From NCBI GenBank assembly GCA_046758445.1, contig JBHIAE010000047.1:1-22323 (forward strand): 22,323 nt of DNA, read 5' to 3'. Position 1 is the first letter of the stretch, and every line of letters starts with the position of its first letter. Shown here in pieces: positions 4,465 to 22,323 of the stretch. The position numbers were made by a program, and so were the translations under genes. Under the pieces are notes generated by a model, which did not search any database, was not told where the DNA came from, and saw nothing but the letters and a program-made list of their open reading frames with translations. The DNA is from Candidatus Thorarchaeota archaeon. Lineage in GTDB: Archaea > Asgardarchaeota > Thorarchaeia > Thorarchaeales > Thorarchaeaceae.

Positions 4465-4499
4465 CCACATACATTGTGACGTTGGGAGGTATCGAAGAG

Positions 4500-7837: not shown

Positions 7838-8479
7838 CTATACGGCCTTCAAAGCGCGACTCGCCAAGAACGAGCTGATGACCCCCAACATTTCATGGGG
7901 CTGATAGAAGATCGAGTTCCTGTCATATAGAAGGCGAATGCTGGCTGGGAACTCTTCATCTTCGTCCTCAAATATGAGCAGAACTCTTACTCGCGGCAGG
8001 AATGGGACTTCAAACCCTGCATCGCCGTAGTCAACTCTCTTGGCACCAAGACGCTCCAGACCTTGGAACAGTTCCGCCCTATTCTCCAGGAAGGCTGTGG
8101 TCATGACCTTGATGTCCTCCTCATCGAAGGAGAACCTACACGCCCATGAGCCACTGAGCGCGTTGAACTTGACCCATTCGTTTGTCACGCCCTCGTCTTT
8201 GGCCTTGCTGTAATAATAGAGGAATGGAACAAGTCGATTGATGCTGACTTTGGCATCCGCAAGTGTATCTAGGGCTTCACCGGTTCCAAGGTTCACTCTG
8301 ATACCAAGGATGTTCACATGCTTACCGTTGACGCCAAGCCGATCCCTTATGGTCTTGATATCTTCCCCGAAGTTCTCCCAGTTCCAGAAGGCCGAGCTCG
8401 TGTCGAACTCTTCGATATTGAACCTGGCCGCAAGCTCACGTGCGATGCTCATCCAGTACTCAAGAATGTCGTCCGCCAT
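7838..8479 (-). CDS. DUF3786-like protein
   Basis: C-terminal pattern EWVKF..L.G....F.......LGA.....GD......FLPRV.V.L......DEEFPA...LLYD.....Y...E recognised as DUF3786, a family often found near corrinoid/ACS genes. Confidence 0.75.
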   Translation of the reverse strand: MADDILEYWMSIARELAARFNIEEFDTSSAFWNWENFGEDIKTIRDRLGVNGKHVNILGIRVNLGTGEALDTLADAKVSINRLVPFLYYYSKAKDEGVTNEWVKFNALSGSWACRFSFDEEDIKVMTTAFLENRAELFQGLERLGAKRVDYGDAGFEVPFLPRVRVLLIFEDEDEEFPASIRLLYDRNSIFYQPHEMLGVISSFLASRALKAV

Positions 8480-9221: not shown

Positions 9222-9611
9222 ATGTCACTGGGTGACTTCCTGTTTCCTCAAGTAGAACTAAAGCTAGTGATTTCTCATTCCTTTGAGACTGATATCGAGT
9301 CTGTTCGCAACAAGGCGTCCAAGGAGTTTCAGAAGCTTGCTGCGAGGATTTCGTTGAGCAAAGGTAATCTACAACGACTTGGACTGGGAGAGGGTGACGC
9401 CGTGAGTGTCGAGTCAATGAGCGGGAGAATTGTGGTTCATGCAATCCCTGATGACAAGTTGGCGGACGACGTAGCAGTCATGCCTCGGTCGCCGTGGGCT
9501 CTCTCCCTTGTTGCCGTGCCTTCAGACGGGGCACCTGTCCAACTTCACGATATCCAAGTAACAGTCACAAAGAGCGAGGACAAGGTCACTTCTTTCGACT
9601 CGATCCTCTAG
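9222..9611 (+). CDS. fwdD: FwdD/FmdD-like molybdopterin-dinucleotide-binding domain protein (divergent)
   Basis: 129 aa, the typical FwdD size; L..LGL.EGD.V.V.S..G..VV.A and P..PWA patterns; lies in the fwdF/fwdG/fwdB neighbourhood. Confidence 0.72.
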   Translation: MSLGDFLFPQVELKLVISHSFETDIESVRNKASKEFQKLAARISLSKGNLQRLGLGEGDAVSVESMSGRIVVHAIPDDKLADDVAVMPRSPWALSLVAVPSDGAPVQLHDIQVTVTKSEDKVTSFDSIL

Positions 9612-10944
9612 TTTCGTTGAACCTCTCAACTACTTCTTTCACTCGCCCCTTCTCGAGTTGTAGCTGAAGTTGAGGATCATTTCTGAGAAGGTCTCTGAGC
9701 GCCTGAGCAGCCTTCATTGCCTGCTTGCGTGCTCCATCCTCAGAGCTCCAAGCCTGTTCTTCCTTAATCCTGACTTGTACCTTCTCACGAATCTTCACCA
9801 CAATGCTCCGCTCAAAGAGACCGCTGGGATCAGGCTCTATGCCAATAACAGCATCAAAGAACAGTCCTCTCGCCTTCTCCCACTTTCGTGCACGTTCGAG
9901 CTCCTCGATATTGTATCCCTCGCGTTTCACTTTGAGAACATCATAGGGACAGGAGTGTTCACATGCACCACAGTAGATGCAGTTGTCGTCGTAGACTGCA
10001 AGCTTCTCAGCTGTGCCCGTAGGATAGATTGACTTCGTTGGGCATATGTTGAAGCAGTTGTTGCAGCCCGTGGGGTCACACTTCTCAAGGTTATTGACGA
10101 TCACTTCCCCAGAGAATGGCTTGGTAACAGTGAGCGCTTCGAACGGACAAATGATGCCACAGAGGCCACATTTCACACATGTTTCATTATCGTGATGGAG
10201 TTGCCCGGTTATCTCAATCTCGCCTATCGTTCGTGGAGTTGACTTTGTGCATTCAACCTCAATTGCTTCATCTGGACATATCTTGGCGCAAAGGCCGCAG
10301 TAGTCACATTCTTCCTCTATGACCTTGATGGCAATCGCAGGTCTGAACTCAGGAGGCTCAGCGGAGTCAGACCAATAGATCTTGATAGCCTTCGGACATA
10401 GCAGCTCACACAGTCCACAGTAAGAGCACTTGTCCTCATCCACCCGAATGCGACCCTCTGCCGACTCTTCGCCCTCATAGATGACAATGTCCTTCTTCTT
10501 GCTTACATTGATATCCACGCTAAGTGATTCCGTTGGACAGACCTTGGCACATAGAAGACACGGGGCGCATTTCTCTTCGTCAATCTCGTGTGTGCCATCA
10601 ATGCGGTTGAACTCATTCACTGCACCTTCGCCCTCGTACGAAGCGTCAAAGGCTCTGAAGACACATGCCGAATCGCAAAGGCCGCAAAACGTGCATAGCT
10701 CTGGATCCACGTTCACAAGTGGTGCATTTTCAATACGCCCAGCGGCAGTCTCCGCAACAGGACCGAGTGTGATTGCCTCCCATGGACATGGCAGGCACAG
10801 GCTGCAACCCACGCACTTCTCGATCTTGTAGTCCAGAGTCTTTTTGAGAAGTGAAGTTTTCCAGACAAACTTCACAGTACCGTCAACAAGGTCCATGGAA
10901 ACGACAGGGTTCTCTCCGATTGTGATGTCATGTCGTTCCATCAT
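9586..10944 (-). CDS. fwdF: FwdF/FmdF-like polyferredoxin (8 predicted [4Fe-4S] motifs)
   Basis: Eight ferredoxin motifs: CVGCSLCLPCP, CTFCGLCDSAC, CAPCLLCAKVCP, CSYCGLCELLCP, CDYCGLCAKICP, CVKCGLCGIICP, CDPTGCNNCFNICP, CIYCGACEHSCP; starts 1 nt after the hdrA stop. Confidence 0.82.
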   Translation of the reverse strand: MMERHDITIGENPVVSMDLVDGTVKFVWKTSLLKKTLDYKIEKCVGCSLCLPCPWEAITLGPVAETAAGRIENAPLVNVDPELCTFCGLCDSACVFRAFDASYEGEGAVNEFNRIDGTHEIDEEKCAPCLLCAKVCPTESLSVDINVSKKKDIVIYEGEESAEGRIRVDEDKCSYCGLCELLCPKAIKIYWSDSAEPPEFRPAIAIKVIEEECDYCGLCAKICPDEAIEVECTKSTPRTIGEIEITGQLHHDNETCVKCGLCGIICPFEALTVTKPFSGEVIVNNLEKCDPTGCNNCFNICPTKSIYPTGTAEKLAVYDDNCIYCGACEHSCPYDVLKVKREGYNIEELERARKWEKARGLFFDAVIGIEPDPSGLFERSIVVKIREKVQVRIKEEQAWSSEDGARKQAMKAAQALRDLLRNDPQLQLQLEKGRVKEVVERFNETRGSSRKK

Positions 10945-10945
10945 T

Positions 10946-13390
10946 TCATCCTCCAGTCGTCCCTTTTGCTCCCGAAGTCTGAACTCTTGTGCTTCTCTCT
11001 ACCATTTCCATACCTAGTGGCCCCAGCTTGGTCACTAGATTGACAAAGTCATTGACCTGTTCGGCGAACTGGTCTGCCTCAGATGCTGAAACACTTCCAA
11101 AGAAGAGGCGTCGTCCATCAATTCCTGCCGCCTCTAGGGCCTCCCCAAGATTGGCTGTCCTACTCATAGCGTATCTGGCACCTGACCGATAGTGACAGTC
11201 TTGAACATGGCAACCCATGACTGCCACTCCGTCCGCACCCTCAGCAAAGGCAGTCAAGAGGGTTTCTGCATTGATACGCCCGGTGCAGGGGACTTGGATA
11301 GGGACGAGGTTAGGGGGATATTTGATTCTGGAGGTGCCTGCCCTGTCAGCAGCGTTGTATGCACACCATCTGCACAGGTAGCCCACAATCGCAGGTCTGA
11401 CCGGGTTGCTCACGACAGCAGTCTTAGTAGCATTAAGCAGTTGCTCTGTCGTAAGGCATGGCAGATCCAGCGCGCCCGACGGACAGGCGGCTGCGCATGC
11501 GCCGCAACCTCTACAGGCTGCTAGACTGATCTGAGGATACTTCTCATGGTCAAAACTGATGGCGTTGGGTGTGCATATTCTCTCACAGAGACGACAGCTT
11601 ATACACAGATCTTCATCAAATGACGGTACGCATGCCTCCGTAATTACGGTACCACTTGTCAGTAGTGTCTTCGCTTTGGACGCAGCAAGACCTGCATGAG
11701 CCACTGTGTCTGCTATGTCTTTAGGTCCCTGAGCGACTCCGGCAAGAAAGACGCCCTTGGTAACAGTGGTACTCGGACCCAGCTTTGGATGTTGTTCCAG
11801 AAAGAATCCGTTTTCATCAAGCGGCGCTCTGAAGAGGTTGGAGATCTCAGCGTTGCCTGGCTCGGAGTCCATGCCCACCATGAGTACAACAAGATCGGTC
11901 TCCATCTCGAGCTGCCTCCTCAGCAGTGTGTCTTCTGCACGTACCGTAGTGTCACCAGACAATGGATCCCGAACGACCTCGCCTATGTTGCCTCGAATGA
12001 AGTTGATGCGATGTTCCTTGGCTGCTCTTTCGTATAGCTCTTCTTGACCCTTTCCGAAAGTCCTCATGTCCGTGTAGAACACGTATGCCTCACAATCAGG
12101 AATCTGTTCCTTGATCTGAACGACCTCTTTGACTGCTGCTGTACAGCAGACCCGGCTGCAGTAGGGTCTCCCAAACCTTTCGGATCGACTTCCGACACAA
12201 AGAGCAAAGACAACGCGTTTTGGTGGTTCTCCATTTGATGGACGTACAAGTCTTCCCCCACTCGGGCCTCCTGGATTAAGCAGCCTCTCTAGTTCAACAG
12301 AAGTGATTACATCAGGGTTCTGTCCATAACCGAGTTCCTCAACGATGCTTGGATTAAACGGTTTGAAACCGGTTGCCAAGACAACGGCACCAAACTCAAT
12401 CGTCTCGGTCACGTCGACTTCATCATATCTGAGTGACTTGGGCTCGCATACTCCTGCACAGGACTGGCATCCAATGCAATTCTCGCTGTCGATAAAAGGT
12501 GCTAGGGGTACAGCATCTACTAGAGGTCTCACCATGGCCTTTCTGTCTCCAAGCCCATAGTTGTACTCATCAGGCACGTCCACGGGGCAAACCTCGATGC
12601 ACCTGTTGCAGCCCGTGCAGGTATCGATGTCTACGAACCTAGCGTTTTGCCTCAAGGTCACCCTGTAGTTTCCTACTCCTCCCCTAACGCCAAGAACGTC
12701 AGTCAAGGTCATTATTCGAATCTTGGGGTGCCTAGCCACCCTTGTCATCATTGGCCCAAGGATACAGATGCCACAGTCGAAGGTCGGGAACAGCTTGTCC
12801 CACTTTGCCATGTGCCCACCCAAGAAGCCCTCCTTCTCCACGATGACAGTTTCGACCCCGGCGTCCGCCATCTCGACCGCTGCAGTCATTCCTGCGACAC
12901 CTCCGCCGATGACAAGGCCTCTCTGAACAACAGGAATAGTATGAGCCTGAATTACCTGGGATGCGCCCACATTGGCCAATCCTGTGTCTATTATGGCTGC
13001 AGCCTTTGCAGTCGCAGAGGCAGGATCATCATAGTGGACCCAGCTACACTGTTCCCTAATGTTTGCCATATGGAGATGACCAGGGTCAATTCCTGCTTCT
13101 CTCACAGCATCGGAAAAGAGTTCCCAGTGGAGGCCAGGTGAACAACCTGCAATGACCACTCTCTCGGCTTTGCTCTTCTTGATAGCCCCAACCAGGTCGT
13201 AGACTCCTTGCTCTGAGCAGAGATGGTCGTCTACCTCAACTAGGGCAATCTTCATTGATTCATACTTCTTTCTGAGAAACTCAACATCGATGGTATCGGC
13301 GACGTTCGAGCCGCATCGGCACAGGAAGACTGCAGTTCTATCATCTTCCTTCTTCTTCCTGCCTTTCTTCTTGCGACTCACTGTTTCCAC
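10946..13390 (-). CDS. hdrA: Heterodisulfide reductase subunit A fused to a C-terminal MvhD ([2Fe-2S]) domain
   Basis: CRCGSN/HLCS/GCSP/NIREQCSWVH N-terminal domain, FAD motif IGGGVAG, FPTFDCGICIL, inserted ferredoxin pair, CVGSR..YCSRVCC, GVAQGPKDI, C-terminal ferredoxin pair, then MvhD motifs CRWCAYNAAD, VPCTGR, GADGV..MGCH..DCHY, SASEA..F. Confidence 0.95.
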   Translation of the reverse strand: METVSRKKKGRKKKEDDRTAVFLCRCGSNVADTIDVEFLRKKYESMKIALVEVDDHLCSEQGVYDLVGAIKKSKAERVVIAGCSPGLHWELFSDAVREAGIDPGHLHMANIREQCSWVHYDDPASATAKAAAIIDTGLANVGASQVIQAHTIPVVQRGLVIGGGVAGMTAAVEMADAGVETVIVEKEGFLGGHMAKWDKLFPTFDCGICILGPMMTRVARHPKIRIMTLTDVLGVRGGVGNYRVTLRQNARFVDIDTCTGCNRCIEVCPVDVPDEYNYGLGDRKAMVRPLVDAVPLAPFIDSENCIGCQSCAGVCEPKSLRYDEVDVTETIEFGAVVLATGFKPFNPSIVEELGYGQNPDVITSVELERLLNPGGPSGGRLVRPSNGEPPKRVVFALCVGSRSERFGRPYCSRVCCTAAVKEVVQIKEQIPDCEAYVFYTDMRTFGKGQEELYERAAKEHRINFIRGNIGEVVRDPLSGDTTVRAEDTLLRRQLEMETDLVVLMVGMDSEPGNAEISNLFRAPLDENGFFLEQHPKLGPSTTVTKGVFLAGVAQGPKDIADTVAHAGLAASKAKTLLTSGTVITEACVPSFDEDLCISCRLCERICTPNAISFDHEKYPQISLAACRGCGACAAACPSGALDLPCLTTEQLLNATKTAVVSNPVRPAIVGYLCRWCAYNAADRAGTSRIKYPPNLVPIQVPCTGRINAETLLTAFAEGADGVAVMGCHVQDCHYRSGARYAMSRTANLGEALEAAGIDGRRLFFGSVSASEADQFAEQVNDFVNLVTKLGPLGMEMVERSTRVQTSGAKGTTGG

Positions 13391-13404
13391 CTAGGCGTAT
13401 CGAA

Positions 13405-13518
13405 AGATAATGATGTCCTGATTATCTGATTGTTTGTGTTACTCGGGTCGTTCAACTTGTCCCGGTTCATCTGATTGAGTATAAGTGTGACCATTGGGGA
13501 TTTGTGCCATCTGCACAA
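13405..13518. promoter_or_regulatory. Divergent promoter region with two inverted repeats (candidate operators)
   Basis: AGATAAT-N9-ATTATCT (13405-13427) and TTGTGC-N5-GCACAA (13502-13518) in the 223-nt gap between divergent hdrA and fwdG-like genes. Confidence 0.4.
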
Positions 13519-13613
13519 GTGCACCCACCGGATGATTCTTGTGGAAATAAGGAAGACTTGCCCTTGTAGTTCGGCGAATCGCTCCAGAGCAAGTACATGG
13601 GAGACACATCAAG

Positions 13614-14072
13614 TTGAAACTGAACCCTATGGAGTTGTACAACCTACTTCCAAAGACCAACTGCAGGCTTTGTGAACCAAAGACATGCATGGCCTTTGCC
13701 ACAAAGCTGGCCTTGGGAGATGTGTTGCCTGATGACTGTCCCCCTCTTCTCGAGCCCGGATTCGAAACGAACCTCTCTAAGATTCGAAACATGGTAGCTC
13801 CTCTCCAGTCGACAGAAACCACTGGGATCAGACTGGAGGAAGACAAGTGCACAGGTTGTGGTAACTGTGTTGTCGTCTGTCCAGTTGATGTCGCCGCAGA
13901 ACCGCCGACGAGCGTAGGAAAAGCCGCAATGAGTGAGGCAACGGTCTTCAGAGTGGAGAATGGTATCTCGAAGATAATCAACCTAGAGAAGTGCCGACGT
14001 TTTCCGCCGGACAGGCTAAACTGTCGAGTCTGTGAGCAATACTGCTGCACTGATGCAATAGAGATCTGGTAG
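13614..14072 (+). CDS. fwdG: FwdG-like ferredoxin with N-terminal FeS (RnfB/CdhE-type) domain
   Basis: LPKTNCRLCEPKTCMAFA...DCPPL FeS domain plus CTGCGNCVVVCP and C......NCRVCEQYC dicluster; directly upstream of fwdB. Start is TTG 13614 or ATG 13629. Confidence 0.7.
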   Translation: MKLNPMELYNLLPKTNCRLCEPKTCMAFATKLALGDVLPDDCPPLLEPGFETNLSKIRNMVAPLQSTETTGIRLEEDKCTGCGNCVVVCPVDVAAEPPTSVGKAAMSEATVFRVENGISKIINLEKCRRFPPDRLNCRVCEQYCCTDAIEIW

Positions 14073-14081
14073 GTGAACCAC

Positions 14082-15371
14082 ATGGAGGAGATGGTCTGTA
14101 CTGGATGTTCCCTGTTGTGTGATGACGTAGCTGCTTCAGAAGAAGGCGGTGTAGTAAGTTCGCTTGGGTTCTGTCGATTGGGACATGTGCACTTGGAGTC
14201 AGCAGCCGAGCATGCTGAAGCATCGGGTGTAGTTCGTGAGGGCAAGAAGCTGAACACTGTATCAGTGAATGATGCCATTACAAAGGCTGCAGACATGCTG
14301 GTTTCAGGTGAGCGCGTTCTACTCTATGGATGGTCACACTCTACAGATGAAACCGTAGAGGAAGGACTTGACCTGGCCACTACACTCGGAGGCTTCTTCG
14401 ACAGCAATGCTAGCATGGCTATGGCCCAGTCACTATCTCATGAGATTCACTCCATGAAGTTGGGTATCGACCTTGAATATGTTCGGAACAATGGTGAGTT
14501 TGTGATCTACTGGGGTTCAGACCCGACTGAGAGTAGTCACAGGCACCCAAGTAGATTTGCTGTTCTGCCAAGAGGTGAGAAGATACCGGAGGGTATTGAG
14601 AGCAGGACCATTGGTGTAGTTGACATCCGGGAAACAGAGACTATGAAGATGGCAAATCACCGGATCATCATTCCTTCCGGGTCTGACGCCGAGCTTCTCA
14701 ATGCGATATCTGCAGAGGTATCCGGCGATTCTTCTATCACCGGGCCAGTGGCCGGAGTGGCACCAACTGAGCTACTTGGCCTTGTGAGAGGACTCCAGAA
14801 GTCAGACTGTACTGTCATCTTCTATGGCACAGGGATCATGAACTCGAAGCATTTTGGAAGCAATCTGGACAGTCTGTCTGGACTAGTGAAGGCTCTCAGA
14901 AGATCTGGTAAGGAGGCATATGCACTCCCAATGTCACATGACAGCAACATCATGGGTGCAATCAAGACTTCCAATGATGCTACAGGATCGCCTGCAACAT
15001 TTGACTATGCATCTGGAAGTCCCGGTGCCAGTTCCAACTCAACTGCCCTTCAGAAACTAGTCGCAGGGGAGTTTGATTCTTCCCTCGTGGTAGGATGCGA
15101 TTCATTGGCAGAAATGCCTGGTCCAGCAGCAAGGGCACTGGCCAGCACGAACCTAGTATATGTGGGTCGGCCAGGAGGACTCACAGAGAGGAAGGCGGCC
15201 GTGTCAATCTTCACTACCGAGGACATATTGACTGGCGCAGGGACGATGCACAGGTCTGACTTCGTGGAGGTTGGGATGAAGTCTTTGGGCACTCGCATAA
15301 AGGGACCTTTGACGCAGCTAGAGGCTCTTAAGAAGATTCACGAGAAGGTCCGCCAGGGTAGCAAGGAGTAA
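14082..15371 (+). CDS. fwdB: FwdB/FmdB-like formylmethanofuran dehydrogenase subunit B homologue, predicted catalytically inactive
   Basis: CTGCSLLCDD...CRLG Fe-S motif, LLYGWS, V.N....VIYWG.DP....RH.SRF, VVDIRET.T...A, GT.HR.D motifs. ATG 14082 lies 5 nt after SD-like AGGTGA (ORF track start GTG 14073). The metal-ligand Cys is absent. Confidence 0.88.
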   Translation: MEEMVCTGCSLLCDDVAASEEGGVVSSLGFCRLGHVHLESAAEHAEASGVVREGKKLNTVSVNDAITKAADMLVSGERVLLYGWSHSTDETVEEGLDLATTLGGFFDSNASMAMAQSLSHEIHSMKLGIDLEYVRNNGEFVIYWGSDPTESSHRHPSRFAVLPRGEKIPEGIESRTIGVVDIRETETMKMANHRIIIPSGSDAELLNAISAEVSGDSSITGPVAGVAPTELLGLVRGLQKSDCTVIFYGTGIMNSKHFGSNLDSLSGLVKALRRSGKEAYALPMSHDSNIMGAIKTSNDATGSPATFDYASGSPGASSNSTALQKLVAGEFDSSLVVGCDSLAEMPGPAARALASTNLVYVGRPGGLTERKAAVSIFTTEDILTGAGTMHRSDFVEVGMKSLGTRIKGPLTQLEALKKIHEKVRQGSKE

Positions 15372-15392: not shown

Positions 15393-16190
15393 ATGAAGAT
15401 CGCAGTCGCTGGTAAAGGTGGAGTAGGCAAGACAACAGTCGCTGGAACTCTGGCAAGATTGCTGGGACAAGATGGCCTCAAGATCCTTGCTGTTGATGCT
15501 GACCCAAGCTACACGCTTTGGTCTGCACTTGGCATTCCTGCTGAGGAGGCGGAGAAGATTGTTCCATTGACTGACAATGAAGAGCTCTTGCAGGAGCGTA
15601 TGGAGATTGAGGGTGCGGGTTCATACAGGAGCATCTTCAAGCTGAACCCAAAGGTCGACGACCTTGCAGATAAGTTTGCAATTCAGGGTCCGGACAATGT
15701 GACGTTGCTGGTGGCTGGTACTGTTGACGTTGGTGATCAAGGGTGCATGTGCCCGTCAGCAACACTACTCAAGGCATTAATGCGTCATCTCGTTCTTGGA
15801 AGTGACGAAGCATTCGTGATGGACATGGATGCAGGCGTAGAGAATCTCGGTCGAGGAACCACCAGGGGAATTGACGCACTCTTAGTAGTCGCAGAACCAG
15901 GTCGAAGGTCTCTGAACATCCTGTCCAAGATAAAGAAACTCGCAACAGACATCGATGTGGGTCGGATACTTGCCGTAGGCAACAAGGTAGACGGTCCAGA
16001 GGATGAGGACATGATTCGACAGAGAGTTGAGGCTGAAGGGATATCACTCCTCGGTTTGGTCCCACTGGACAACTCTGTCAAAGAAGCAGACAGGAAGGGA
16101 ATAGCGCCGATTGACCTAGACCCGAACTCTACCGGGATGGTCGCTCTGCGCGACATCAAGGACCGCCTCGTCCAGGAAGTCGCAGTCTGA
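15393..16190 (+). CDS. cooC: CooC/AcsF nickel-insertion ATPase for CODH/ACS
   Basis: MKIAVAGKGGVGKTT deviant Walker A, VDADP, GCMCP Ni-binding CxC, DMDAGVENLGRG, VGNK; directly upstream of cdhA. Confidence 0.92.
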   Translation: MKIAVAGKGGVGKTTVAGTLARLLGQDGLKILAVDADPSYTLWSALGIPAEEAEKIVPLTDNEELLQERMEIEGAGSYRSIFKLNPKVDDLADKFAIQGPDNVTLLVAGTVDVGDQGCMCPSATLLKALMRHLVLGSDEAFVMDMDAGVENLGRGTTRGIDALLVVAEPGRRSLNILSKIKKLATDIDVGRILAVGNKVDGPEDEDMIRQRVEAEGISLLGLVPLDNSVKEADRKGIAPIDLDPNSTGMVALRDIKDRLVQEVAV

Positions 16191-16344: not shown

Positions 16345-18687
16345 ATGAAGAAGAAGGTACACTTCAAAGCTGATGAAGCTAGGACAGGCCTAGGCGTATT
16401 CAAGAACCTAGAAGTCAGCATCGGCACTATTGTCGATGACGAGTGGGATGCGCCAATGGGTCCAACCCCTTTGCCTGGACCTACTGCTCTCCGCTCGTGG
16501 GACCACAAACTTCTATCCAGATATCATCCATCCTATATGCCGTATTGTCAGGTCTGTTGCTTATGCACTTTCGGAAAATGCGATCTCACTGGCGACAAGA
16601 AGGGTGCATGCGGACTGAACATGAAAGGTCAACAGGCCCGGATTGTTCTCACTGCCGCTAACATGGGCTGCTCAGCACACCTTGCACATGCACGACATCT
16701 TGTAGATCATTTGACAGGAGAATATGGCCCCGGCGCAGAACTGATTCAGGGACCGGGGACGGAGATTCATGCTCCTGTTTCACGTCTTGTCACAGGAATG
16801 CGTCCTAGGACCCTTCAAGATGCAGGTGTAATCTTGGACTATTGCGAAACGCAGCTAGCTCACACACTGTCTGCTACAGCAACTGGACAAGAAGGAAGTT
16901 GGCTGGACTTTGAGAGCAAAGTGCTCCATACCGGAATGATCGACCAGTTGAGTATGGAGATTGCTGACTTAGCTCAGGTGTCAACTCTGGGCTTCCCCCA
17001 GGCCGACCCTGATGCACCTCTGGTCGAAGCTGGCTTGGGGATGATGGACAAGAAGAAAGCTGGCATCTTGGCGATAGGGCACAATGTTTTGTATGCTGCA
17101 TCAGTAACCGACTACATTACTGAGAATGATCTTAATGATAAGGTCGAATTGGGGGGAATCTGCTGCACAGCTTGGGACATAACTCGACGCGACGCTAGTG
17201 CCAAGGTCATCGGACCAATCTCATATCAACTCAGATTTGTAAGAAGTGGCATGGCTGATGTCATAATCGTCGATGCACAATGCATCCGAACCGATATCGT
17301 TGAGGAAGCTCAAAAGGTCAAGGCCGTTGTCATATCCACTACTGACAAATCTGTACTCGGATTACCTGACAGGACAGATGATCCTGTCGATGAAATTGCA
17401 GAAGACTTGGTTTCCTACAGAAGCCCTGGTGCTCACATAGCCGACACACGCAAGGTTGGTGAAGTTGCTGCCAAAGTGGCGATAGCTCTTCATCCGATAA
17501 GAAAGAAGAAGAGGATTCTGCCGAGCAAGGCGAAGATCAAGAAGATGGCCGAATCCTGCAAGAAATGCATGGAGTGTGTTAGGAGCTGTCCAAATGACCA
17601 GCCTGTTCAGGAAGCCGTTCTTGCAGCCGCGGTTGGCAATTATGAGCCTCTCAGAGAAGTATACCATAATTGCATTGGCTGTGCACGCTGTGAATCTGCC
17701 TGTCCTAATGAGTACGATCTCCATGGCTGGATGGTAGTAGCAGCAATGGACGAATGCAAGAATGAGAAGTATGTTCTCCGAACTGGGCGAGGAGCAATAC
17801 AGGATACAGAGATTCGGAGTGTTGGTCAGCCAATTGTGTTTGGTGAGATACCTGGAGTCATTGCTCATGTTGGCTGCGCCAACTATCCCGGTGGGGGAAA
17901 AGATGTACACGACATGGCAGAGGAGTTTGCGAAGAGAAGATACATCATTGTCACATCCGGCTGCGCAGCAATGTCGGCAGGGCAAGTGAAGGATGAGAAT
18001 GGGCAGTCTATTTATGAACGCCGCGGAGGCGCTTTCGATGCGGGAAATGTAGTTAATGTTGGCTCATGCGTTTCGAATTCGCATATTGCAGGCGCCGCCA
18101 TCAAGATTGCCGCTATTTTCGCAAAAAGGAATTTGCGAGGCAACTACGCAGAGATTGCAGACTATATTCACAACCGAGTTGGCGCTGTGGGTATCTCATG
18201 GGGCGCCATGTCACAGAAAGCTGCGTCAATTGCAGCTGGATTCTGGAGGCTCGGAGTGCCTGTGATAGTTGGCCCTCATGGATCCAAGTATCGTAGAATG
18301 CTTCTTGGAAGAGCCGACAGAGAGAAGGATTGGGTTGTCTGGGACGCCCGTACGGGTGAACGAATGCAGACCGCCCCTGGTCCAGAACATCTCTTCTATG
18401 CAGCTGAAACCGTGGATGAAGCCAATGTGTTGACTGCAAAGCTCTGTCTAAGACCCAATGACACCAGCAAAGGTCGCTCAATCAAGCTGAGTCACTATAT
18501 AGACATCCATGAGAAATCTTATGGCTACTTCCCAGAAGATGTCTGGACTTACATCAGACGTGATTCTGACATTCCAATCACTCTGAAGGACAAGATACTG
18601 GCTCAGATGAAGGAGAACAAATGGAAGGAGCGGAAGATTCCAGACCCGACGCTCCTCAAGGAGCAGGTAATTGGAGGTGGTGCCTAA
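16345..18687 (+). CDS. cdhA: CO dehydrogenase/acetyl-CoA synthase (ACDS) alpha subunit
   Basis: PMGPTP.P, CQVCCLCTFGKC..GACG, GHN, GICCT, DAQC, two extra ferredoxin motifs (CKKCMECVRSCP, CIGCARCESACP), GCANY, SGC, GSCVSN, WGAMSQKA, PDPT C-terminus. Confidence 0.97.
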   Translation: MKKKVHFKADEARTGLGVFKNLEVSIGTIVDDEWDAPMGPTPLPGPTALRSWDHKLLSRYHPSYMPYCQVCCLCTFGKCDLTGDKKGACGLNMKGQQARIVLTAANMGCSAHLAHARHLVDHLTGEYGPGAELIQGPGTEIHAPVSRLVTGMRPRTLQDAGVILDYCETQLAHTLSATATGQEGSWLDFESKVLHTGMIDQLSMEIADLAQVSTLGFPQADPDAPLVEAGLGMMDKKKAGILAIGHNVLYAASVTDYITENDLNDKVELGGICCTAWDITRRDASAKVIGPISYQLRFVRSGMADVIIVDAQCIRTDIVEEAQKVKAVVISTTDKSVLGLPDRTDDPVDEIAEDLVSYRSPGAHIADTRKVGEVAAKVAIALHPIRKKKRILPSKAKIKKMAESCKKCMECVRSCPNDQPVQEAVLAAAVGNYEPLREVYHNCIGCARCESACPNEYDLHGWMVVAAMDECKNEKYVLRTGRGAIQDTEIRSVGQPIVFGEIPGVIAHVGCANYPGGGKDVHDMAEEFAKRRYIIVTSGCAAMSAGQVKDENGQSIYERRGGAFDAGNVVNVGSCVSNSHIAGAAIKIAAIFAKRNLRGNYAEIADYIHNRVGAVGISWGAMSQKAASIAAGFWRLGVPVIVGPHGSKYRRMLLGRADREKDWVVWDARTGERMQTAPGPEHLFYAAETVDEANVLTAKLCLRPNDTSKGRSIKLSHYIDIHEKSYGYFPEDVWTYIRRDSDIPITLKDKILAQMKENKWKERKIPDPTLLKEQVIGGGA

Positions 18688-19232
18688 TGGTCATGCGACC
18701 AGTTCCATGGCAGACAGGTGAGATATGCGGTCCAGAGAGTGCAAAGTCCCTCACGAAAGCCACTCAACTTCAGAGATCTTTCAGACAGACAAAGAAACCA
18801 CTGCTGATTGTGGGATCTGAAGCTGTCAATGAGAAGCACAATGAGGGCGACATGATTGACTATGCGATTGCATTGTCAAAAGCTGGGAAGATGCCTGTTA
18901 TTGCTACCGGAGGTGCAATCAAGGCTTTTATCAGCAAGGGCTTTGGGGGTGCAAAGTCCATGGGTGCTATGGAATTAGCACTCTACCTCCAAGACGAAAC
19001 ATGGACAGGCCCTCAAGAGAAGGGCCCTCACGACCTTGTCCTCGTGTATGGAATCCCATACTATATGCAGTGGACACTGTTATCCGCAACAATGAACTTC
19101 GGGACCCACTTGACGACAATCTCCCTGGCGCGCCACTATCAACCACATGCAGATTGGTCTTTCCCGAACATGAAGGAGAAGCAGTGGCACGAGATTCTAG
19201 ATGAGATTCTAGAGTTTGTAGGAGGAAAGTAG
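18687..19232 (+). CDS. cdhB: ACDS epsilon subunit
   Basis: PWQ.....GP, KKPLLIVG, L.D..W.G....G.HDLV...G.PYY....LS, QPHADWSFPN; ATG 18687 overlaps the cdhA TAA (TAATG) and follows GGAGGTGG, so it is preferred over 18621. Confidence 0.93.
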   Translation: MVMRPVPWQTGEICGPESAKSLTKATQLQRSFRQTKKPLLIVGSEAVNEKHNEGDMIDYAIALSKAGKMPVIATGGAIKAFISKGFGGAKSMGAMELALYLQDETWTGPQEKGPHDLVLVYGIPYYMQWTLLSATMNFGTHLTTISLARHYQPHADWSFPNMKEKQWHEILDEILEFVGGK

Positions 19233-19233
19233 A

Positions 19234-20643
19234 ATGTCTTTCGAAGATATCCCGGTAGACGTAGGCGTCGTCTACGAAGGTGAACGAGTAAGAGGCAAAG
19301 ACATGTTTGTCGAGCTCGGTGGACCAAAGATAGAGAAGAAGTTCGAGTTGGCACTGGCACGTGAGATGGACCAGATTGACGATGAGAAGGTCACCATTAT
19401 TGGGCCAGATCTCAAGGACATGGATGAAGGAAGCTACCATCCCTTTGGCATTCTTGTTGAGGTGGCCGGAGAAGACATCGAGCCAGATCTCGAAGGTGTT
19501 GTCGAGCGGCGAATCCACGAGTACGTGAACTTCGTAGAAGGCATGATGCACCTCAACCAGAGATACGACATCTGGATCCGCCTCAGCAAGAGGTCCTACG
19601 GTAAGGGCTTCAACACCTTGGAACACCTGGGGAAAGTCCTGATTCGACTCTTCAAGAGCGAGATGAATATCATCGAGAAGATACAGGTTACGTTCTTGAC
19701 CGACCCCGAGAAGGTCGCCGAACGATACGATGAAGCCATCAACAGGTACAATGAGCGAGATGCGAGAGCGAGAGGTCTCAGTGACGCCGACGTGGATACA
19801 TTCTACGGCTGTTCTCTCTGCCAGTCATTTGCTCCGACTCACGTGTGCATGATAACTCCTCAGAGGTATGCGAACTGTGGGGCAATCAGTTGGTTTGACG
19901 GACGAGCAGCTGCGCGCGTTGATCCTAAAGGACCCCTGTATGCCATTCCAAAGGGTGACGTAATAGACGAATTTCGTGGTGAGTACACTGGAGTGAATCA
20001 GGTCTATGCTGAGAAGTCGCTCGGGAAGGTGACATCTGTGGCTCTCTATAGTGCATTTGAGAAACCCCACACAAGCTGCGGCTGCTTTGAAGCCATAGCA
20101 TTCGTGATCCCGGAAGTGGACGGACTTGGAGTTGTTCACAGAGACTTCAAAGGCGAGACTGTCAACGGACTTCCCTTCTCTAGCATGGCTGACTCCACGG
20201 CCGGAGGTCGCCAGGTACCGGGCTTCCACGGTCTCTCGATTGAGTACATGAGGTCCCCACGATTTCTACAAGTTGATGGTGGGTGGAATAGGATTGTCTG
20301 GTTGCCAGACTCAGTGAAGCAGCGTGTCTATGAATTCATGCCGGAGGACATCCGTGACAAGATTCCGACAGAGAATGAGGTCATGTCAATTGCAGACCTT
20401 AAGACATACTTGAAGCAGGAGAATCATCCAGTCGTAGAACGCTGGGTGGAACTGGAAGAAGAGGAAACGACGGCTCTTGCGGAAGTCGCTGAGGGTAGTC
20501 AAGACTACGTCACTGTTCCTGGAGACCTGACTGCAATGGTGGGCGGTGTCGGTGGAGGTCTTGAGATCATCTTCAAGAACGCGAAGATATACGCCGAGAA
20601 AGTCATCATTCGCAAGACAGGCAAGGGTGACAAGAAGAAATGA
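19234..20643 (+). CDS. cdhC: ACDS beta subunit (acetyl-CoA synthase)
   Basis: YEGERVR...ELGG, ERRIH...EG.MHLNQR, A-cluster ligands CSLCQSFAPTHVC...CGA and HTSCGCFE, GGWNRIVWLP, C-terminal IIFKNAKIYAEKVII. Confidence 0.97.
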   Translation: MSFEDIPVDVGVVYEGERVRGKDMFVELGGPKIEKKFELALAREMDQIDDEKVTIIGPDLKDMDEGSYHPFGILVEVAGEDIEPDLEGVVERRIHEYVNFVEGMMHLNQRYDIWIRLSKRSYGKGFNTLEHLGKVLIRLFKSEMNIIEKIQVTFLTDPEKVAERYDEAINRYNERDARARGLSDADVDTFYGCSLCQSFAPTHVCMITPQRYANCGAISWFDGRAAARVDPKGPLYAIPKGDVIDEFRGEYTGVNQVYAEKSLGKVTSVALYSAFEKPHTSCGCFEAIAFVIPEVDGLGVVHRDFKGETVNGLPFSSMADSTAGGRQVPGFHGLSIEYMRSPRFLQVDGGWNRIVWLPDSVKQRVYEFMPEDIRDKIPTENEVMSIADLKTYLKQENHPVVERWVELEEEETTALAEVAEGSQDYVTVPGDLTAMVGGVGGGLEIIFKNAKIYAEKVIIRKTGKGDKKK

Positions 20644-21833
20644 CATCAGAGGATGACGAGAGAGGACAATCATTGGACGACATCTTCGGCGATTTCGCTG
20701 AGCTCGAGCTGGAGAATGTTTCCATTGAGGTCGATGAGCTGAGGATTGCTCTTCGTCCCATGGTCCAGAGAATGGCACAGGCAGCAGCTAGGGCTGCGAT
20801 AGAGATGCCGAAGTCCCTAATACCTTCCTCATTCAAGGCCCCCCTCGGTGAGTATCCCGGAACAATCCGTGAGATCACCATCGGAGCCACAAAGAAGGAC
20901 GGTGGGTCTCGAAGCAACTCTGTGACAATCGGGGGGCACACGGCACCAGCCTGGGATCTGTTCCAGTCGCCCCCCAAGAACCTACCGGTGATTGCCGCTG
21001 ACGTCTTCGATATGCCAATCTCCCTCGCAAAGGCCGTGAAGACACACTACAGGGAAGTAATGGAGGACCCTGCAGAGTGGGCAAGGCTCTGTGTTGACAA
21101 GTTTGGTGCAGACCTCATTACAATACATTTGATCAGCACAGATCGACAGATTCGTGACACATCCCCTGGAGAAGCTGCAAAGACTGTTGAGGAAGTGCTT
21201 CAGGCTGTGAAGGTGCCAGTGCTCATTGGTTCAGCGGGAGACCCGGAGAAGGATGGACCAGTCTTGGCAAAGGCCGCAGAGGTCTGCGAGGGTGAGAGGA
21301 CACTGCTTTGTTCAGCGACTGTGGATGTCTATGAACCAGTTGCTCAGGCGGCCAAGAAGCATGATCAGGTAGTCCTCTCTTGGACATCACTTGATATCAA
21401 TCAGCAGAAGGAGTTGAACCGTAGGCTCATAGACTGGCTTAGACCTGATCAGATCGTGATTGATCCGACGACCGCGGCCCTAGGCTATGGTCTCGAGTAT
21501 GCCTTCACGATGATGCAGAGAATGCGGTTGGCAGGCCTTCTTGGCGATGAGGAGCTACAGTACCCGATTAGCTCTGGCACTACGAATGCATGGGCCGCCA
21601 GAGAGGCATGGCTGAAGGCACCGGAGCTCGGTCCACGAGAGCTGAGAGGTCCCATCTGGGAGAGCGTCACAGCACTTTCCTTGCTACTCGCTGGTAACGA
21701 TTTGTTCATGATGATGCACCCTGCAGCCATTAAGACAGTACACGACCTGGTAGGCTGGTTGCGCGAACGACGACCAATCCCCGGTGAGGAGTATGCAGAC
21801 TGGACTATGATGTCCATTCCGGAGGAAACGTGA
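20640..21833 (+). CDS. cdhD: ACDS delta subunit (corrinoid Fe-S protein small subunit)
   Basis: IGAT..DGG.R...VTIGG, FGADLITIHLISTD, G.PEKD, DINQQKELNR, DPTTAALGYGLEY, AWAAREAW, MMMHP; ATGA overlap with cdhC. Confidence 0.96.
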   Translation: MTSEDDERGQSLDDIFGDFAELELENVSIEVDELRIALRPMVQRMAQAAARAAIEMPKSLIPSSFKAPLGEYPGTIREITIGATKKDGGSRSNSVTIGGHTAPAWDLFQSPPKNLPVIAADVFDMPISLAKAVKTHYREVMEDPAEWARLCVDKFGADLITIHLISTDRQIRDTSPGEAAKTVEEVLQAVKVPVLIGSAGDPEKDGPVLAKAAEVCEGERTLLCSATVDVYEPVAQAAKKHDQVVLSWTSLDINQQKELNRRLIDWLRPDQIVIDPTTAALGYGLEYAFTMMQRMRLAGLLGDEELQYPISSGTTNAWAAREAWLKAPELGPRELRGPIWESVTALSLLLAGNDLFMMMHPAAIKTVHDLVGWLRERRPIPGEEYADWTMMSIPEET

Positions 21834-22323
21834 TGGTAAAGCTTGCAGGTCCCTTGGACATCTATCCACTTCTCCCAGGCACCAACTGCGAGCTGTGCGG
21901 AGAAGCTAACTGCATGGCATTCGCAACCAAACTTGCGGAGTATACTGTGAAACTGTCTGCGTGCACCCCACTCTTTGAGGAAACTCAATACGCCAAGAAG
22001 CTGACCAGGCTGGAGGATCTGATTCGTCCAGCCGTCCGAGAAGTAACAATCGGTGTTGGTGCGAAAGCAGCGTCGATAGGCGGGAAGCTGGTTCTCTACA
22101 GACACGACCTACGATACACGAATCCAGTTGCCTTCTTCATTGACATTGCCGACAATCTTGACTCGGAGGCGTTGTCACAGAGGGTCAAGGCAATCGAGGA
22201 ATGGACTTACGTATACATCGGACAGAATCTACGGTTGGACGGCATAGCCCTGAGAGGCGTATCGCAGGACCCCAAGACATTCGCCAAGGCAGCAAAGCAG
22301 GTGTCCAAGCTTACAGACTGGCC
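21833..22323 (+). CDS. cdhE: ACDS gamma subunit (corrinoid Fe-S protein large subunit), 3'-truncated by the window edge
   Basis: Not in the ORF track (no stop in window). ATG 21833 overlaps the cdhD TGA; translation MVKLAGPLDIYPLLPGTNCELCGEANCMAFATKLAEY...ACTPL...PAVREVTIG...IGGKLVLYRHD...NP. Confidence 0.95.
   Translation, partial: MVKLAGPLDIYPLLPGTNCELCGEANCMAFATKLAEYTVKLSACTPLFEETQYAKKLTRLEDLIRPAVREVTIGVGAKAASIGGKLVLYRHDLRYTNPVAFFIDIADNLDSEALSQRVKAIEEWTYVYIGQNLRLDGIALRGVSQDPKTFAKAAKQVSKLTDW

What the first reader, a model, noticed from the sequence alone, without database searches (positions are those of the whole stretch)
14082..15371. FwdB homologue that has lost its W/Mo ligand and active-site residues but kept its [4Fe-4S] cysteines
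Seen: where canonical FwdB reads D-N-T-A-S-V-C-H-G-P-S, this protein reads D-S-N-A-S-M-A-M-A-Q-S. Codon GCT (Ala) at 14418-14420 replaces the metal-ligating Cys/Sec and ATG (Met) replaces the adjacent His. The PMRGHYN motif has become PMSHDSN (14928-14948), losing Arg and His. The N-terminal CxxCxxxC...C cluster motif is intact and the ORF is full length without stops or frameshifts, so it does not look like a decaying pseudogene. Established: Cys118/His119/Arg288/His290 form the CO2-reducing site in methanogen FwdB, and methylotroph FhcB is a known cofactor-less derivative. Inference: an archaeal pseudo-enzyme FwdB acting as scaffold or electron-wire terminus, or part of an Fhc-like complex that hydrolyses or condenses formyl-methanofuran with free formate. 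Automatic annotation would wrongly credit this locus with CO2 reduction.
Basis: partly seen in the sequence, partly recalled or inferred. Interest (0 to 1): 0.8.

Follow-up and report, generated by a model that had tools for sequence, protein, structure and literature searches.

The report
Catalytically stripped FwdB beside CODH/ACS
This Asgard (Thorarchaeota-type) archaeon has a second, well-conserved copy of the CO2-reducing subunit FwdB that lacks its metal ligand and catalytic residues but keeps its iron-sulfur cluster; it is inherited with an HdrA/polyferredoxin gene set and the acetyl-CoA synthase genes, so it is more likely an electron relay or scaffold than a CO2 reductase.

Summary
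Ala-Met (14418-14423) replaces Cys-His, and PMSHDSN (14928-14948) replaces PMRGHYN. The four [4Fe-4S] cysteines are intact.

It is not a lesion or a sequencing error.
- All 120 closest homologues (48-88% identity, Thorarchaeota-type MAGs) lack the Cys: Gly 115, Ala 2, Ser 2.
- dN/dS is 0.06-0.14.
- The AlphaFold model is a confident FwdB fold.
- A canonical fwdD-fwdB-fwdA operon lies elsewhere in the genome, with single fwdC and ftr genes.

The gene sits in a conserved island: DUF3786 | FwdD-like | polyferredoxin <- HdrA2-MvhD | FeS protein -> FwdB-like -> CooC -> cdhABCDE. The island is shared by Thor- and Hermodarchaeota genomes. Within the family, FwdB-like, FwdD-like and CdhC occur in the same five genera. 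Canonical FwdB also occurs in genomes without CdhC.

My best reading (about 0.6) is a non-catalytic remnant of Fwd that relays or scaffolds electron transfer between HdrA2/polyferredoxin and CODH/ACS. Context does not support the Fhc-like alternative. Loss of the pterin cofactor is inferred, not shown, because several nucleotide-binding-type motifs and the FwdD partner are retained.

Dead MopB subunits and Fwd-Hdr clusters are already known, so I rate this a new variant of a known kind. This scan has noted the same module before on other Thor, Hermod and Baldr DNA.

The parts
14082..15371 (+). FwdB-like paralogue (429 aa, P0001). The [4Fe-4S] cysteines C6/C9/C13/C31 are kept. The Cys-His ligand pair and the Arg/His of PMRGHYN are replaced.
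   Evidence: (TIGR03129 267.9 bits, below the 327.8 cut-off)
14418..14423 (+). Codons GCT ATG (Ala113-Met114) at the positions of the W/Mo-ligating Cys and the adjacent His of canonical FwdB.
   Evidence: ligand column across 120 homologues is G115/A2/S2 with no Cys
14928..14948 (+). PMSHDSN in place of PMRGHYN (Arg and His lost).
13629..14072 (+). Fe-S protein, about 147 aa from the internal Met. It has an RnfB/CdhE-type N-terminal Fe-S domain (PF04060) and a 2x[4Fe-4S] ferredoxin domain, making it a FwdG-like partner. It is translationally coupled to the FwdB-like gene.
   Evidence: dN/dS 0.01-0.03; the same FeS->fwdB pairing occurs inside a complete fwd operon in L053
10946..13390 (-). HdrA2-type flavoprotein fused to an MvhD/FlpD domain (814 aa), divergent from the FeS/FwdB-like operon.
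   Evidence: (NF040770 880 bits; PF02662 1.3e-43)
9586..10944 (-). FwdF-like polyferredoxin (452 aa, 33 Cys). It has six full CxxCxxCxxxC motifs plus two variant ones, which implies about eight clusters. It lies directly downstream of hdrA2.
   Evidence: (NF042909 222.8 bits)
9222..9611 (+). FwdD-like protein (129 aa, PF01568). The canonical LTSGRTLKQG motif is replaced by VISHSFETD.
   Evidence: dN/dS 0.05-0.09; same genus distribution as CdhC
15393..16190 (+). CooC-type P-loop ATPase (nickel insertion for CODH), directly downstream of the FwdB-like gene.
16345..22321 (+). cdhA, cdhB, cdhC, cdhD and the start of cdhE (archaeal CODH/ACS). Same strand and apparently the same operon.
7838..8479 (-). 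DUF3786 protein, conserved at the edge of the island in the Thor-type (f1) loci only; no match in the Hermod loci.

Best explanation
The gene encodes a non-catalytic descendant of FwdB. It keeps the FwdB fold and the N-terminal [4Fe-4S] cluster but no longer has the Cys ligand or the His/Arg/His residues that reduce CO2.

It works with a degenerate FwdD-like cap, a FwdG-like Fe-S protein, a FwdF-like polyferredoxin and an HdrA2-MvhD flavoprotein. These correspond to the electron-wiring subunits of the methanogen Hdr-Fwd machinery, without the catalytic FwdA/FwdC and without the metal site.

The module is encoded in and around the CODH/ACS operon and is inherited with it. It most likely relays or scaffolds low-potential electron transfer between HdrA2/polyferredoxin and CODH/ACS, rather than making formyl-methanofuran.

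Shown: residue loss, clade-wide conservation, purifying selection, fold, synteny, co-occurrence, and a separate canonical Fwd.

Inferred: loss of the pterin cofactor, physical complex formation, direction of electron flow, and contact with CODH/ACS.
For: Residues:
- Ligand and catalytic residues are replaced in the window.
- The same holds in all 120 closest homologues, while the four Fe-S Cys are invariant.
- PF00384 is not detected in P0001 even at E<=1, whereas the canonical paralogue hits it at 4.7e-10.
- The FwdD-like partner has lost the TSGR motif in every locus examined.

Selection and fold:
- dN/dS is 0.06-0.14, against 0.03 for canonical FwbB-type genes, i.e. canonical FwdB, in the same genome pairs. 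This is similar to the non-catalytic CdhB subunit at 0.09-0.14.
- AlphaFold mean pLDDT is 86, and TM-score to FwdB 5T5I/8RJA/7BKB is 0.86-0.89.

Context:
- The order FwdD-like | polyFd | HdrA2 | FeS | FwdB-like | CooC | Cdh is conserved in 11 Thor-type and 5 Hermod-type loci.
- In locus L052, FeS-FwdB-HdrA2-polyFd form a single operon next to CooC-CdhA.

Phyletic pattern in the family:
- FwdB-like against CdhC: 31 genomes with both, 35 with neither, 9 discordant. All discordant genomes are 62-84% complete.
- FwdD-like occurs in the same five genera.
- 19 genomes have canonical FwdB but neither CdhC nor the paralogue.

Own genome:
- It has a canonical fwdD-fwdB-fwdA operon and single fwdC and ftr genes elsewhere.

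Precedents:
- FhcB acts as a scaffold (PMC6926001).
- A non-catalytic Molybdop protein accompanies type II HdrA (PMC12054007).
- The hdrA-mvhD/polyferredoxin operon of M. acetivorans is upregulated on acetate (PMC5296606).
Against: - No contact between the module and CODH/ACS is shown. Operon membership and co-occurrence are the only link.
- Cofactor loss is not demonstrated. The Thor clade keeps 32 of 73 canonical-invariant columns. These include WGxxP, VDxR, FxGxG, D340 and R391/D393, all invariant in the 30-sequence alignment of the clade. In MopB enzymes such motifs usually contact the guanine dinucleotides; this attribution is from my own knowledge and was not tested here.
- The ligand column is a conserved Gly (115 of 120), which is not what a freely drifting site would show.
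- A FwdD-like cap is retained under purifying selection, unlike in the Fhc complex.
- Arsenite oxidase shows that a Mo-bisPGD enzyme can work without a protein ligand (my own knowledge).
- No hdrB or hdrC lies in the island, so the third branch of any bifurcation is unknown.
Confidence: 0.6

Rival explanations
1. The protein still binds a W/Mo-bis-pyranopterin cofactor, held by the retained nucleotide-binding motifs and the FwdD-like cap, with no protein ligand to the metal. It would catalyse a reaction other than CO2 reduction, using electrons from HdrA2/polyferredoxin.
For: - Polar residues are invariant at canonical-invariant positions (D181, R183, D340, R391, D393, WGxxP, FxGxG) across the clade.
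- The ligand column is a conserved Gly in 115 of 120 homologues.
- The FwdD-like partner is under purifying selection.
- The nearest relatives in the tree keep Cys-His and sit in the same HdrA2/polyferredoxin context.
Against: - The FwdD-like protein has lost the TSGR motif in all loci.
- PF00384 is no longer detectable.
- The His, Arg and His positions vary within the clade (L/P/S/A/V/M; F/A/Y/W/S; E/Q/D/H), which argues against a defined active site.
- The loop around canonical residues 300-325 is deleted in about half of the clade.
- The evolutionary rate is 2-3 times that of the canonical copy.
Confidence: 0.17
2. It is an alternative B subunit that joins the genome's single FwdA/FwdC (and Ftr) to form an Fhc-like complex. 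That complex would hydrolyse or form formyl-methanofuran using free formate.
For: It is homologous to FwdB, and FhcB is a precedent. Most genomes with the paralogue also give a second, canonical-level FwdB match, so FwdA/FwdC partners could be available; their presence was checked only in the window's own genome.
Against: - No fwdA, fwdC or ftr lies in the island, and the genome has only one copy of each.
- The paralogue tracks CdhC, not Fwd. Nineteen genomes have canonical FwdB without it.
- It keeps the Fe-S domain and the FwdD partner, both of which FhcB lost.
- It is operon-linked to HdrA2 and the polyferredoxin in relatives.
Confidence: 0.07
3. It is an assembly or maturation factor for CODH/ACS, for example an Fe-S or Ni cluster chaperone platform working with CooC, rather than part of a steady-state electron path.
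For: It lies immediately upstream of cooC in the cdh operon in all Thor-type loci examined and in one Hermod locus; in most Hermod loci about 1 kb intervenes. It co-occurs with CdhC.
Against: - Its conserved partners are electron-transfer proteins: a polyferredoxin with about eight clusters, an HdrA2 flavoprotein and a three-cluster Fe-S protein.
- In L052 it shares an operon with hdrA2, and cooC is separate.
- I know of no MopB-fold maturation factor.
Confidence: 0.06

Closest known systems
FwdB/FmdB, catalytic subunit of formylmethanofuran dehydrogenase (PDB 5T5I_B, 8RJA_B, 7BKB_H)
   Same: Same fold (TM-score 0.86-0.89, 22-28% identity), same length, and the same N-terminal four-Cys [4Fe-4S] motif. 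It has FwdD-, FwdF- and FwdG-like partners.
   Different: No Cys/Sec ligand and no His119, Arg288 or His290 equivalents. It scores below the TIGR03129 cut-off. It is not clustered with fwdA or fwdC, and it tracks CODH/ACS instead.
'Fwd-Hdr' gene cluster of Methanonezhaarchaeia strain YNP3N (FwdBD + FwdF + FwdG with HdrABC; PMC12700198), and the Asgard/TACK Cys-containing, Arg-less FwdB relatives (e.g. locus L052)
   Same: A second FwdB/D set with FwdF and FwdG co-located with HdrA, separate from the catalytic FwdABCD. The nearest tree neighbours of the Thor/Hermod clade are of the Cys-keeping, Arg-less type, and locus L052 has FeS-FwdB-HdrA2-polyFd in one operon.
   Different: Here the metal ligand is gone, no hdrB or hdrC lies in the island, and the set is merged with the cdh operon. 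The formate-oxidising role proposed for YNP3N would need the metal site.
Methanosarcinales fwdG2B2D2 cluster and hdrA(-mvhD)-polyferredoxin operon (PMC2838876, PMC5296606)
   Same: A G-B-D set without A or C, and an HdrA-MvhD fusion paired with a polyferredoxin. The polyferredoxin operon is upregulated during acetotrophic, CODH/ACS-dependent growth.
   Different: Methanosarcinales proteins of this type read C-Q/L and PMVGHYN, so they keep the Cys, and they form a separate clade with 100% support. That these proteins are the FwdB2 of fwdG2B2D2 is my inference. Their two gene sets lie at separate loci and are not in the cdh operon.
FhcB of the formyltransferase/hydrolase complex (PDB 6S6Y; PMC6926001)
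   Same: An FwdB-derived subunit with the ligand Cys, His and Arg replaced, acting as a scaffold.
   Different: FhcB lacks the Fe-S domain and the FwdD partner, and it sits in fhcBADC. Structurally it is more distant (TMq 0.67). It is bacterial and belongs to aerobic methylotrophs.
Non-catalytic 'Molybdop' protein in type II HdrA-MvhD-FdhB clusters of ANME-2/3 and Methanosarcinaceae (PMC12054007)
   Same: A Cys-less MopB-family protein associated with HdrA and proposed to be structural.
   Different: The paper places that clade close to FdhG and FhcB, and it is paired with FdhB. The protein here is of FwdB lineage, is paired with FwdD/F/G-like proteins, and is tied to CODH/ACS.

Membership tests
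FwdB/FmdB (TIGR03129, catalytic subunit) | N-terminal CxxCxxxC...C [4Fe-4S] motif | tested here: met
   C6, C9, C13 and C31 are present and invariant in homologues.
FwdB/FmdB (TIGR03129, catalytic subunit) | MopB/FwdB three-domain fold | tested here: met
   AlphaFold pLDDT 86, pTM 0.87; TM-score 0.86-0.89 to 5T5I_B, 8RJA_B and 7BKB_H.
FwdB/FmdB (TIGR03129, catalytic subunit) | Cys or Sec ligand to W/Mo (Cys118 in M. wolfeii) | tested here: not met
   Ala113 (GCT 14418-14420). The clade column is G115/A2/S2. There is no in-frame stop, so it is not Sec.
FwdB/FmdB (TIGR03129, catalytic subunit) | Catalytic His119, Arg288 and His290 | tested here: not met
   Met114, Ser285 and Asp287. These positions vary within the clade.
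FwdB/FmdB (TIGR03129, catalytic subunit) | Score above the curated family cut-off | tested here: not met
   267.9 bits against a cut-off of 327.8. The canonical copy on contig C27 scores 545 bits.
FwdB/FmdB (TIGR03129, catalytic subunit) | Gene clustered with fwdA and fwdC | tested here: not met
   Neither is in the window. Single fwdA (C27/C32) and fwdC (C2) lie elsewhere.
FwdB/FmdB (TIGR03129, catalytic subunit) | Bound W/Mo-bis-pyranopterin guanine dinucleotide | not testable with these tools
The sequence evidence is mixed.
FhcB (formyltransferase/hydrolase scaffold) | Loss of the N-terminal Fe-S domain and of the FwdD partner | tested here: not met
   The Fe-S Cys are kept. A FwdD-like gene is conserved and co-inherited. 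FhcB features are taken from PMC6926001.
FhcB (formyltransferase/hydrolase scaffold) | Clustered with fhcA, fhcC and fhcD (ftr) | tested here: not met
   The neighbours are the FeS protein, CooC, Cdh, HdrA2 and the polyferredoxin.
Hdr-Fwd type electron-bifurcating gene sets (Fwd-Hdr cluster of YNP3N; Hdr-Fmd supercomplexes) | FwdB, D, F and G homologues co-located with HdrA | tested here: met
   All five are within 9222-15371, and the order is conserved in 16 loci.
Hdr-Fwd type electron-bifurcating gene sets (Fwd-Hdr cluster of YNP3N; Hdr-Fmd supercomplexes) | HdrB/HdrC in the set and a metal-bearing FwdB as electron sink or source | tested here: not met
   No CCG-domain gene is in the window, although 34 CCG-domain matches in roughly 19 genes occur elsewhere in the genome. 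The FwdB ligand is absent.
Methanosarcinales FwdB2 (fwdG2B2D2) | Same orthologous clade and same site pattern (C-Q/L, PMVGHYN) | tested here: not met
   They form a separate clade with 100% support and keep the Cys. Assigning these proteins to fwdG2B2D2 is an inference.

The most novel reading that the evidence does not exclude
HdrA2-MvhD, the eight-cluster polyferredoxin, the FwdG-like Fe-S protein and the dead FwdB/FwdD pair form a physical supercomplex with CODH/ACS. This complex passes bifurcated low-potential electrons directly into CO2 reduction to CO or into corrinoid activation, or takes them from CO oxidation, without free ferredoxin. It would be a CODH/ACS counterpart of the methanogen Hdr-Fmd supercomplex, in non-methanogenic Asgard archaea.
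Probability: 0.25. Interest if true: 0.85.

Novelty: new variant of a known kind. Interest (0 to 1): 0.58.

Why it matters
- Annotation. Metabolic reconstructions of Thor- and Hermodarchaeota count FwdB homologues as CO2-reducing steps of the Wood-Ljungdahl pathway. JGI names homologues of this paralogue as FwdB. It should not be counted as a second CO2 reductase.
- Energetics. The conserved, co-inherited HdrA2/polyferredoxin/Fwd-remnant module beside CODH/ACS points to an uncharacterised way of supplying or removing low-potential electrons at acetyl-CoA synthase. This bears on how close archaeal relatives of eukaryotes conserve energy in the absence of a detected [NiFe] hydrogenase.
- Evolution. 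It gives a graded natural series for how a pterin enzyme turns into a redox scaffold: canonical FwdB, then Arg-less forms that keep the Cys, then the Glu-Tyr (Hermod) and Gly (Thor) forms.

Tried and rejected
I obtained synteny through the genome search and the fetch from genomes instead.
- The 285-aa minus-strand ORF at 13439-14296 looked conserved in tblastn. It is the shadow of the plus-strand Fe-S gene, which has PF04060 and Fer4 hits while the minus ORF has none.
- I examined G242, which has a partial FwdB-like hit and no CdhC, as a possible natural loss. The locus contains 515 N, so the truncation is an assembly gap.
- I tried to use FhcB as a control for how many canonical-invariant columns a known cofactor-less protein keeps. 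FhcB was never among the printed PDB alignments, so the control was not done.
- Pocket inspection was not possible because model coordinates are not exposed.
- I rejected a hidden selenocysteine or sequencing error. There is no in-frame stop, and the same motif occurs in an independent MAG.
- I rejected orthology with the Methanosarcinales FwdB2-type proteins on the tree.
- Literature searches for this paralogue in Asgard archaea found no description. The nearest is a remark that some FwdB-family hits lack the Cys (PMC10100899; searches).
Full report
**Observation**

The ORF 14082-15371 (+) translates to a 429-aa protein (P0001) without stops. The reported codons are exact.
- GCT ATG at 14418-23 encodes Ala113-Met114 within D-S-N-A-S-M-A-M-A-Q-S.
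- CCA ATG TCA CAT GAC AGC AAC at 14928-48 encodes PMSHDSN.

HMMER alignments to solved FwdB chains (8RJA_B 4.9e-45, 5T5I_B 2.3e-43) place these residues opposite the ...SVCHGPS and PMRGHYN motifs. The genome's own canonical FwdB reads DNTSSVCHGPT and PMRGHYN. The four [4Fe-4S] cysteines are present. NCBIfam TIGR03129 covers the protein end to end but scores 267.9 bits, below its cut-off of 327.8. Pfam finds nothing at the default threshold.

**Organism and second copy**

The window is contig C47 of a 3.25-Mb MAG that is 93% complete. The closest homologues are named Thorarchaeota or Promethearchaeota MAG proteins.

The same genome has a canonical FwdB (545 bits) in a fwdD-fwdB-fwdA operon at the end of contig C27.
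- fwdA continues on contig C32.
- Single fwdC and ftr genes lie on C2.

No second FwdA or FwdC was found. No [NiFe] hydrogenase large subunit was found either.

**Not a lesion**

Among the 120 best homologues (48-88% identity), the ligand column is Gly 115, Ala 2, Ser 2 and never Cys. The Arg column is F/A/Y/W/S. The four Fe-S cysteines are conserved wherever the N-terminus is present. A separate MAG protein, 88% identical, has the same Ala-Met variant.

Pairwise Nei-Gojobori dN/dS for the paralogue is 0.06-0.14 where dS is unsaturated. For comparison:

| Gene | dN/dS |
|---|---|
| FwdB-like paralogue | 0.06-0.14 |
| Canonical FwdB, same genome pairs | 0.03 |
| HdrA2 | 0.02-0.04 |
| CdhB (non-catalytic subunit) | 0.09-0.14 |

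The gene is therefore constrained but evolves 2-3 times faster than the catalytic copy.

An AlphaFold2 model built on a 30-sequence alignment is confident (pLDDT 86, pTM 0.87). It matches FwdB structures at TM-score 0.86-0.89. FhcB is more distant at TMq 0.67.

**Surroundings**

A 285-aa minus-strand ORF overlaps the start of the gene, but it is a shadow. The real gene there is on the plus strand (about 13629-14072). It encodes an Fe-S protein with an RnfB/CdhE-type N-terminal cluster domain (PF04060) and a two-cluster ferredoxin domain. Its TAG stop lies 9 nt before the FwdB-like ATG, with a GGTGA between them.

Downstream, on the same strand, come a CooC-type ATPase and cdhA, cdhB, cdhC, cdhD and cdhE.

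Divergently transcribed are two genes:
- an HdrA2-type flavoprotein fused to MvhD (NF040770, 880 bits);
- directly after it, a FwdF-like polyferredoxin with about eight cluster motifs.

Convergent with that is a 129-aa FwdD-like protein (PF01568, 2.6e-9). A DUF3786 protein lies further upstream.

**Conservation of the island**

tblastn of the window's proteins against 18 fetched loci gives the same order: FwdD-like | polyFd | HdrA2 | FeS | FwdB-like | CooC | CdhABCDE. This holds in 11 loci of the window's family. It also holds, with insertions, in 5 loci of a second family. Record titles name that family Hermodarchaeota.

In a third family (locus L052), FeS-FwdB-HdrA2-polyFd form a single operon beside CooC-CdhA, and there the FwdB keeps Cys-His.

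In a fourth family (locus L053), the same kind of Fe-S gene sits between fwdA and a Cys-His fwdB (498 bits) in a full fwdD-fwdA-FeS-fwdB operon. The FeS->FwdB pair is therefore an Asgard version of FwdG-FwdB that was duplicated.

**Phyletic pattern**

In the window's family, the paralogue, the FwdD-like protein and CdhC are found in the same five genera (g1, g2, g9, g14, g15). They were not found in the other eleven genera.

Genome by genome, FwdB-like against CdhC gives 31 with both, 35 with neither and 9 discordant. All discordant genomes are 62-84% complete and belong to genera that otherwise carry both. Nineteen genomes, several 95-99% complete, have canonical FwdB but neither CdhC nor the paralogue.

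The genomes are related, so these counts are descriptive and not a statistical test. The paralogue follows CODH/ACS, not Fwd.

**Phylogeny**

A whole-library phmmer search found 727 relatives. Many FwdB-family representatives lack the Cys.

Trees under LG+G4 and LG+C20 PMSF give the same picture.
- The Thor forms (Gly/Ala) and the Hermod forms (Glu-Tyr at the Cys-His positions, PM..YCN) form one clade with 98-99% SH-aLRT support.
- Its nearest neighbours are TACK and Asgard proteins that keep Cys-His but lack Arg288.
- Methanosarcinales proteins reading C-Q/L and PMVGHYN form a separate clade with 100% support. They are probably the FwdB2 of the named fwdG2B2D2 cluster (PMC2838876).
- Canonical Cys-His/Arg-His proteins, including this genome's other copy, lie elsewhere in the tree.
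- Cys loss also occurred independently in Helarchaeota-labelled proteins and in a Bathyarchaeota form.

**Is the pterin cofactor gone?**

This is inferred, not shown.

Evidence for loss:
- The ligand and catalytic residues are gone.
- PF00384 is undetectable at E<=1, although the canonical copy hits it.
- The FwdD-like partner has lost the LTSGRTLKQG motif in every locus, and GPWAN has become GPWAL.
- The former active-site positions vary within the clade.
- A loop around canonical residues 300-325 is deleted in about half of the clade.

Evidence against loss:
- 32 of 73 canonical-invariant columns are kept. These include WGxxP, VDxR, FxGxG, D340 and R391/D393, all invariant in the 30-sequence clade alignment.
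- The ligand column is a conserved Gly.
- FwdD-like is under purifying selection (dN/dS 0.05-0.09).
- The most invariant stretch of the clade (residues 148-175) coincides with the least confident part of the model. That pattern would fit a partner or ligand interface.

I could not inspect the pocket because coordinates are not exposed. I also could not run the FhcB control.

**Mechanism**

The retained parts correspond to the electron-wiring subunits of Fwd: F, G, the Fe-S domain of B, and D as its cap. They are joined to HdrA-MvhD.

In the methanogen Hdr-Fmd/Fwd supercomplexes of the literature, a polyferredoxin carries bifurcated low-potential electrons from HdrA to the FwdB metal site.

In this island the metal site is missing, and the genes are merged with the cdh operon and co-inherited with it. 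The most economical reading is that the FwdB/FwdD remnant is a docking and relay piece of an HdrA2/polyferredoxin complex whose partner is CODH/ACS.

In M. acetivorans the hdrA-mvhD/polyferredoxin operon is upregulated during acetotrophic growth, and HdrA2B2C2 takes electrons from CODH/ACS via ferredoxin (PMC5296606). This gives an independent functional link between the two systems.

The direction of flow, the third redox partner (no hdrB or hdrC is in the island; 34 CCG-domain matches occur elsewhere) and any physical contact with CODH/ACS remain unknown.

**Comparison with known systems and novelty**

Cofactor-less or non-catalytic MopB subunits are established.
- FhcB is one (PMC6926001).
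- Nqo3 is another, and Wells et al. remark that some FwdB-family hits lack the Cys (PMC10100899).
- An HdrA-associated Molybdop clade, which the paper places close to FdhG and FhcB, is a third (PMC12054007).

A second FwdBD-FwdF-FwdG set beside Hdr was described in a cultured Methanonezhaarchaeia strain, where it was proposed to oxidise formate (PMC12700198).

The present protein differs from FhcB because it keeps the Fe-S domain and a FwdD partner. It differs from the YNP3N and Methanosarcinales forms because the metal ligand is lost. It differs from all of them in its fusion with the CODH/ACS operon.

I found no paper describing this paralogue in Asgard archaea. Earlier notes of this scan describe the same module on other Thor, Hermod and Baldr genomes. 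I used two of their leads (fwdG2B2D2 and Kohtz et al.) and checked both against the papers and my own tree.

**Verdict**

I rate it a new variant of a known kind, with interest 0.58.

Noticed in passing
window 13439-14296 (-): This 285-aa ORF overlaps the FwdB-like start and looks conserved in tblastn. It has no family hit and is the antisense shadow of the plus-strand Fe-S gene at 13629-14072. Gene callers could pick the wrong strand here.
   Followed up: yes
L047-L051 (Hermodarchaeota loci), FwdB-like genes: The Hermod forms have Glu-Tyr at the Cys-His positions. They also carry a Cys one residue before the final Asn of the PM....N motif (PMVAYCN) in four of the five loci; L047 reads PLISHSN. 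They keep 48 of 73 canonical-invariant columns, more than the Thor forms. Whether Glu or this Cys could serve as a substitute ligand is open.
   Followed up: partly
P0299, P0336 (Helarchaeota-labelled) and P0130/P0275 (Bathyarchaeota-labelled): These are further FwdB-family proteins without the ligand Cys (T-T/T-I and G-Y). They lie in clades separate from the Thor/Hermod one, so the ligand has been lost several times independently in archaea.
   Followed up: partly
window 7838-8479 (-) and 8633-9199 (+): A DUF3786 protein is conserved at the edge of the island in all Thor-type loci. A small GTPase lies between it and the FwdD-like gene, but only in the closest relatives (86-89% identity).
   Followed up: partly
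window 4476-6287 (+), 6383-6691 (+), 6700-6942 (+): An aldehyde:ferredoxin oxidoreductase-family protein (603 aa) is followed by two small MoaD/ThiS-like proteins. The first of these is only weakly ThiS-like.
   Followed up: no
G000 contigs C1 (162-170 kb) and C24 (17-21 kb): Several further HdrA paralogues occur here. Some matches are interrupted by in-frame TGA or TAG, which may mark selenocysteine sites or breaks. CCG-domain (HdrB/D-like) genes are nearby.
   Followed up: no
G000 C27:3-554 and C32:7-843: The single canonical fwdA is split across two contig ends. This looks like an assembly break, not a broken gene.
   Followed up: partly
P0001 residues 148-175 (window about 14523-14606): The stretch P-x-E-S-S-H-R-H-P-S-R-F-A-V-L-P-R-G-E-K-I-P-E-G-I-E-S-R is the most invariant part of the clade. 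It coincides with the lowest model confidence (pLDDT 55-64). This may mark a partner or ligand interface.
   Followed up: no
L036, L038, L039, L041-L045, about 1 kb downstream of cdhE: A second, distant CooC-like ATPase (about 30% identity to the first) follows the cdh operon in relatives. The window ends before that point.
   Followed up: no
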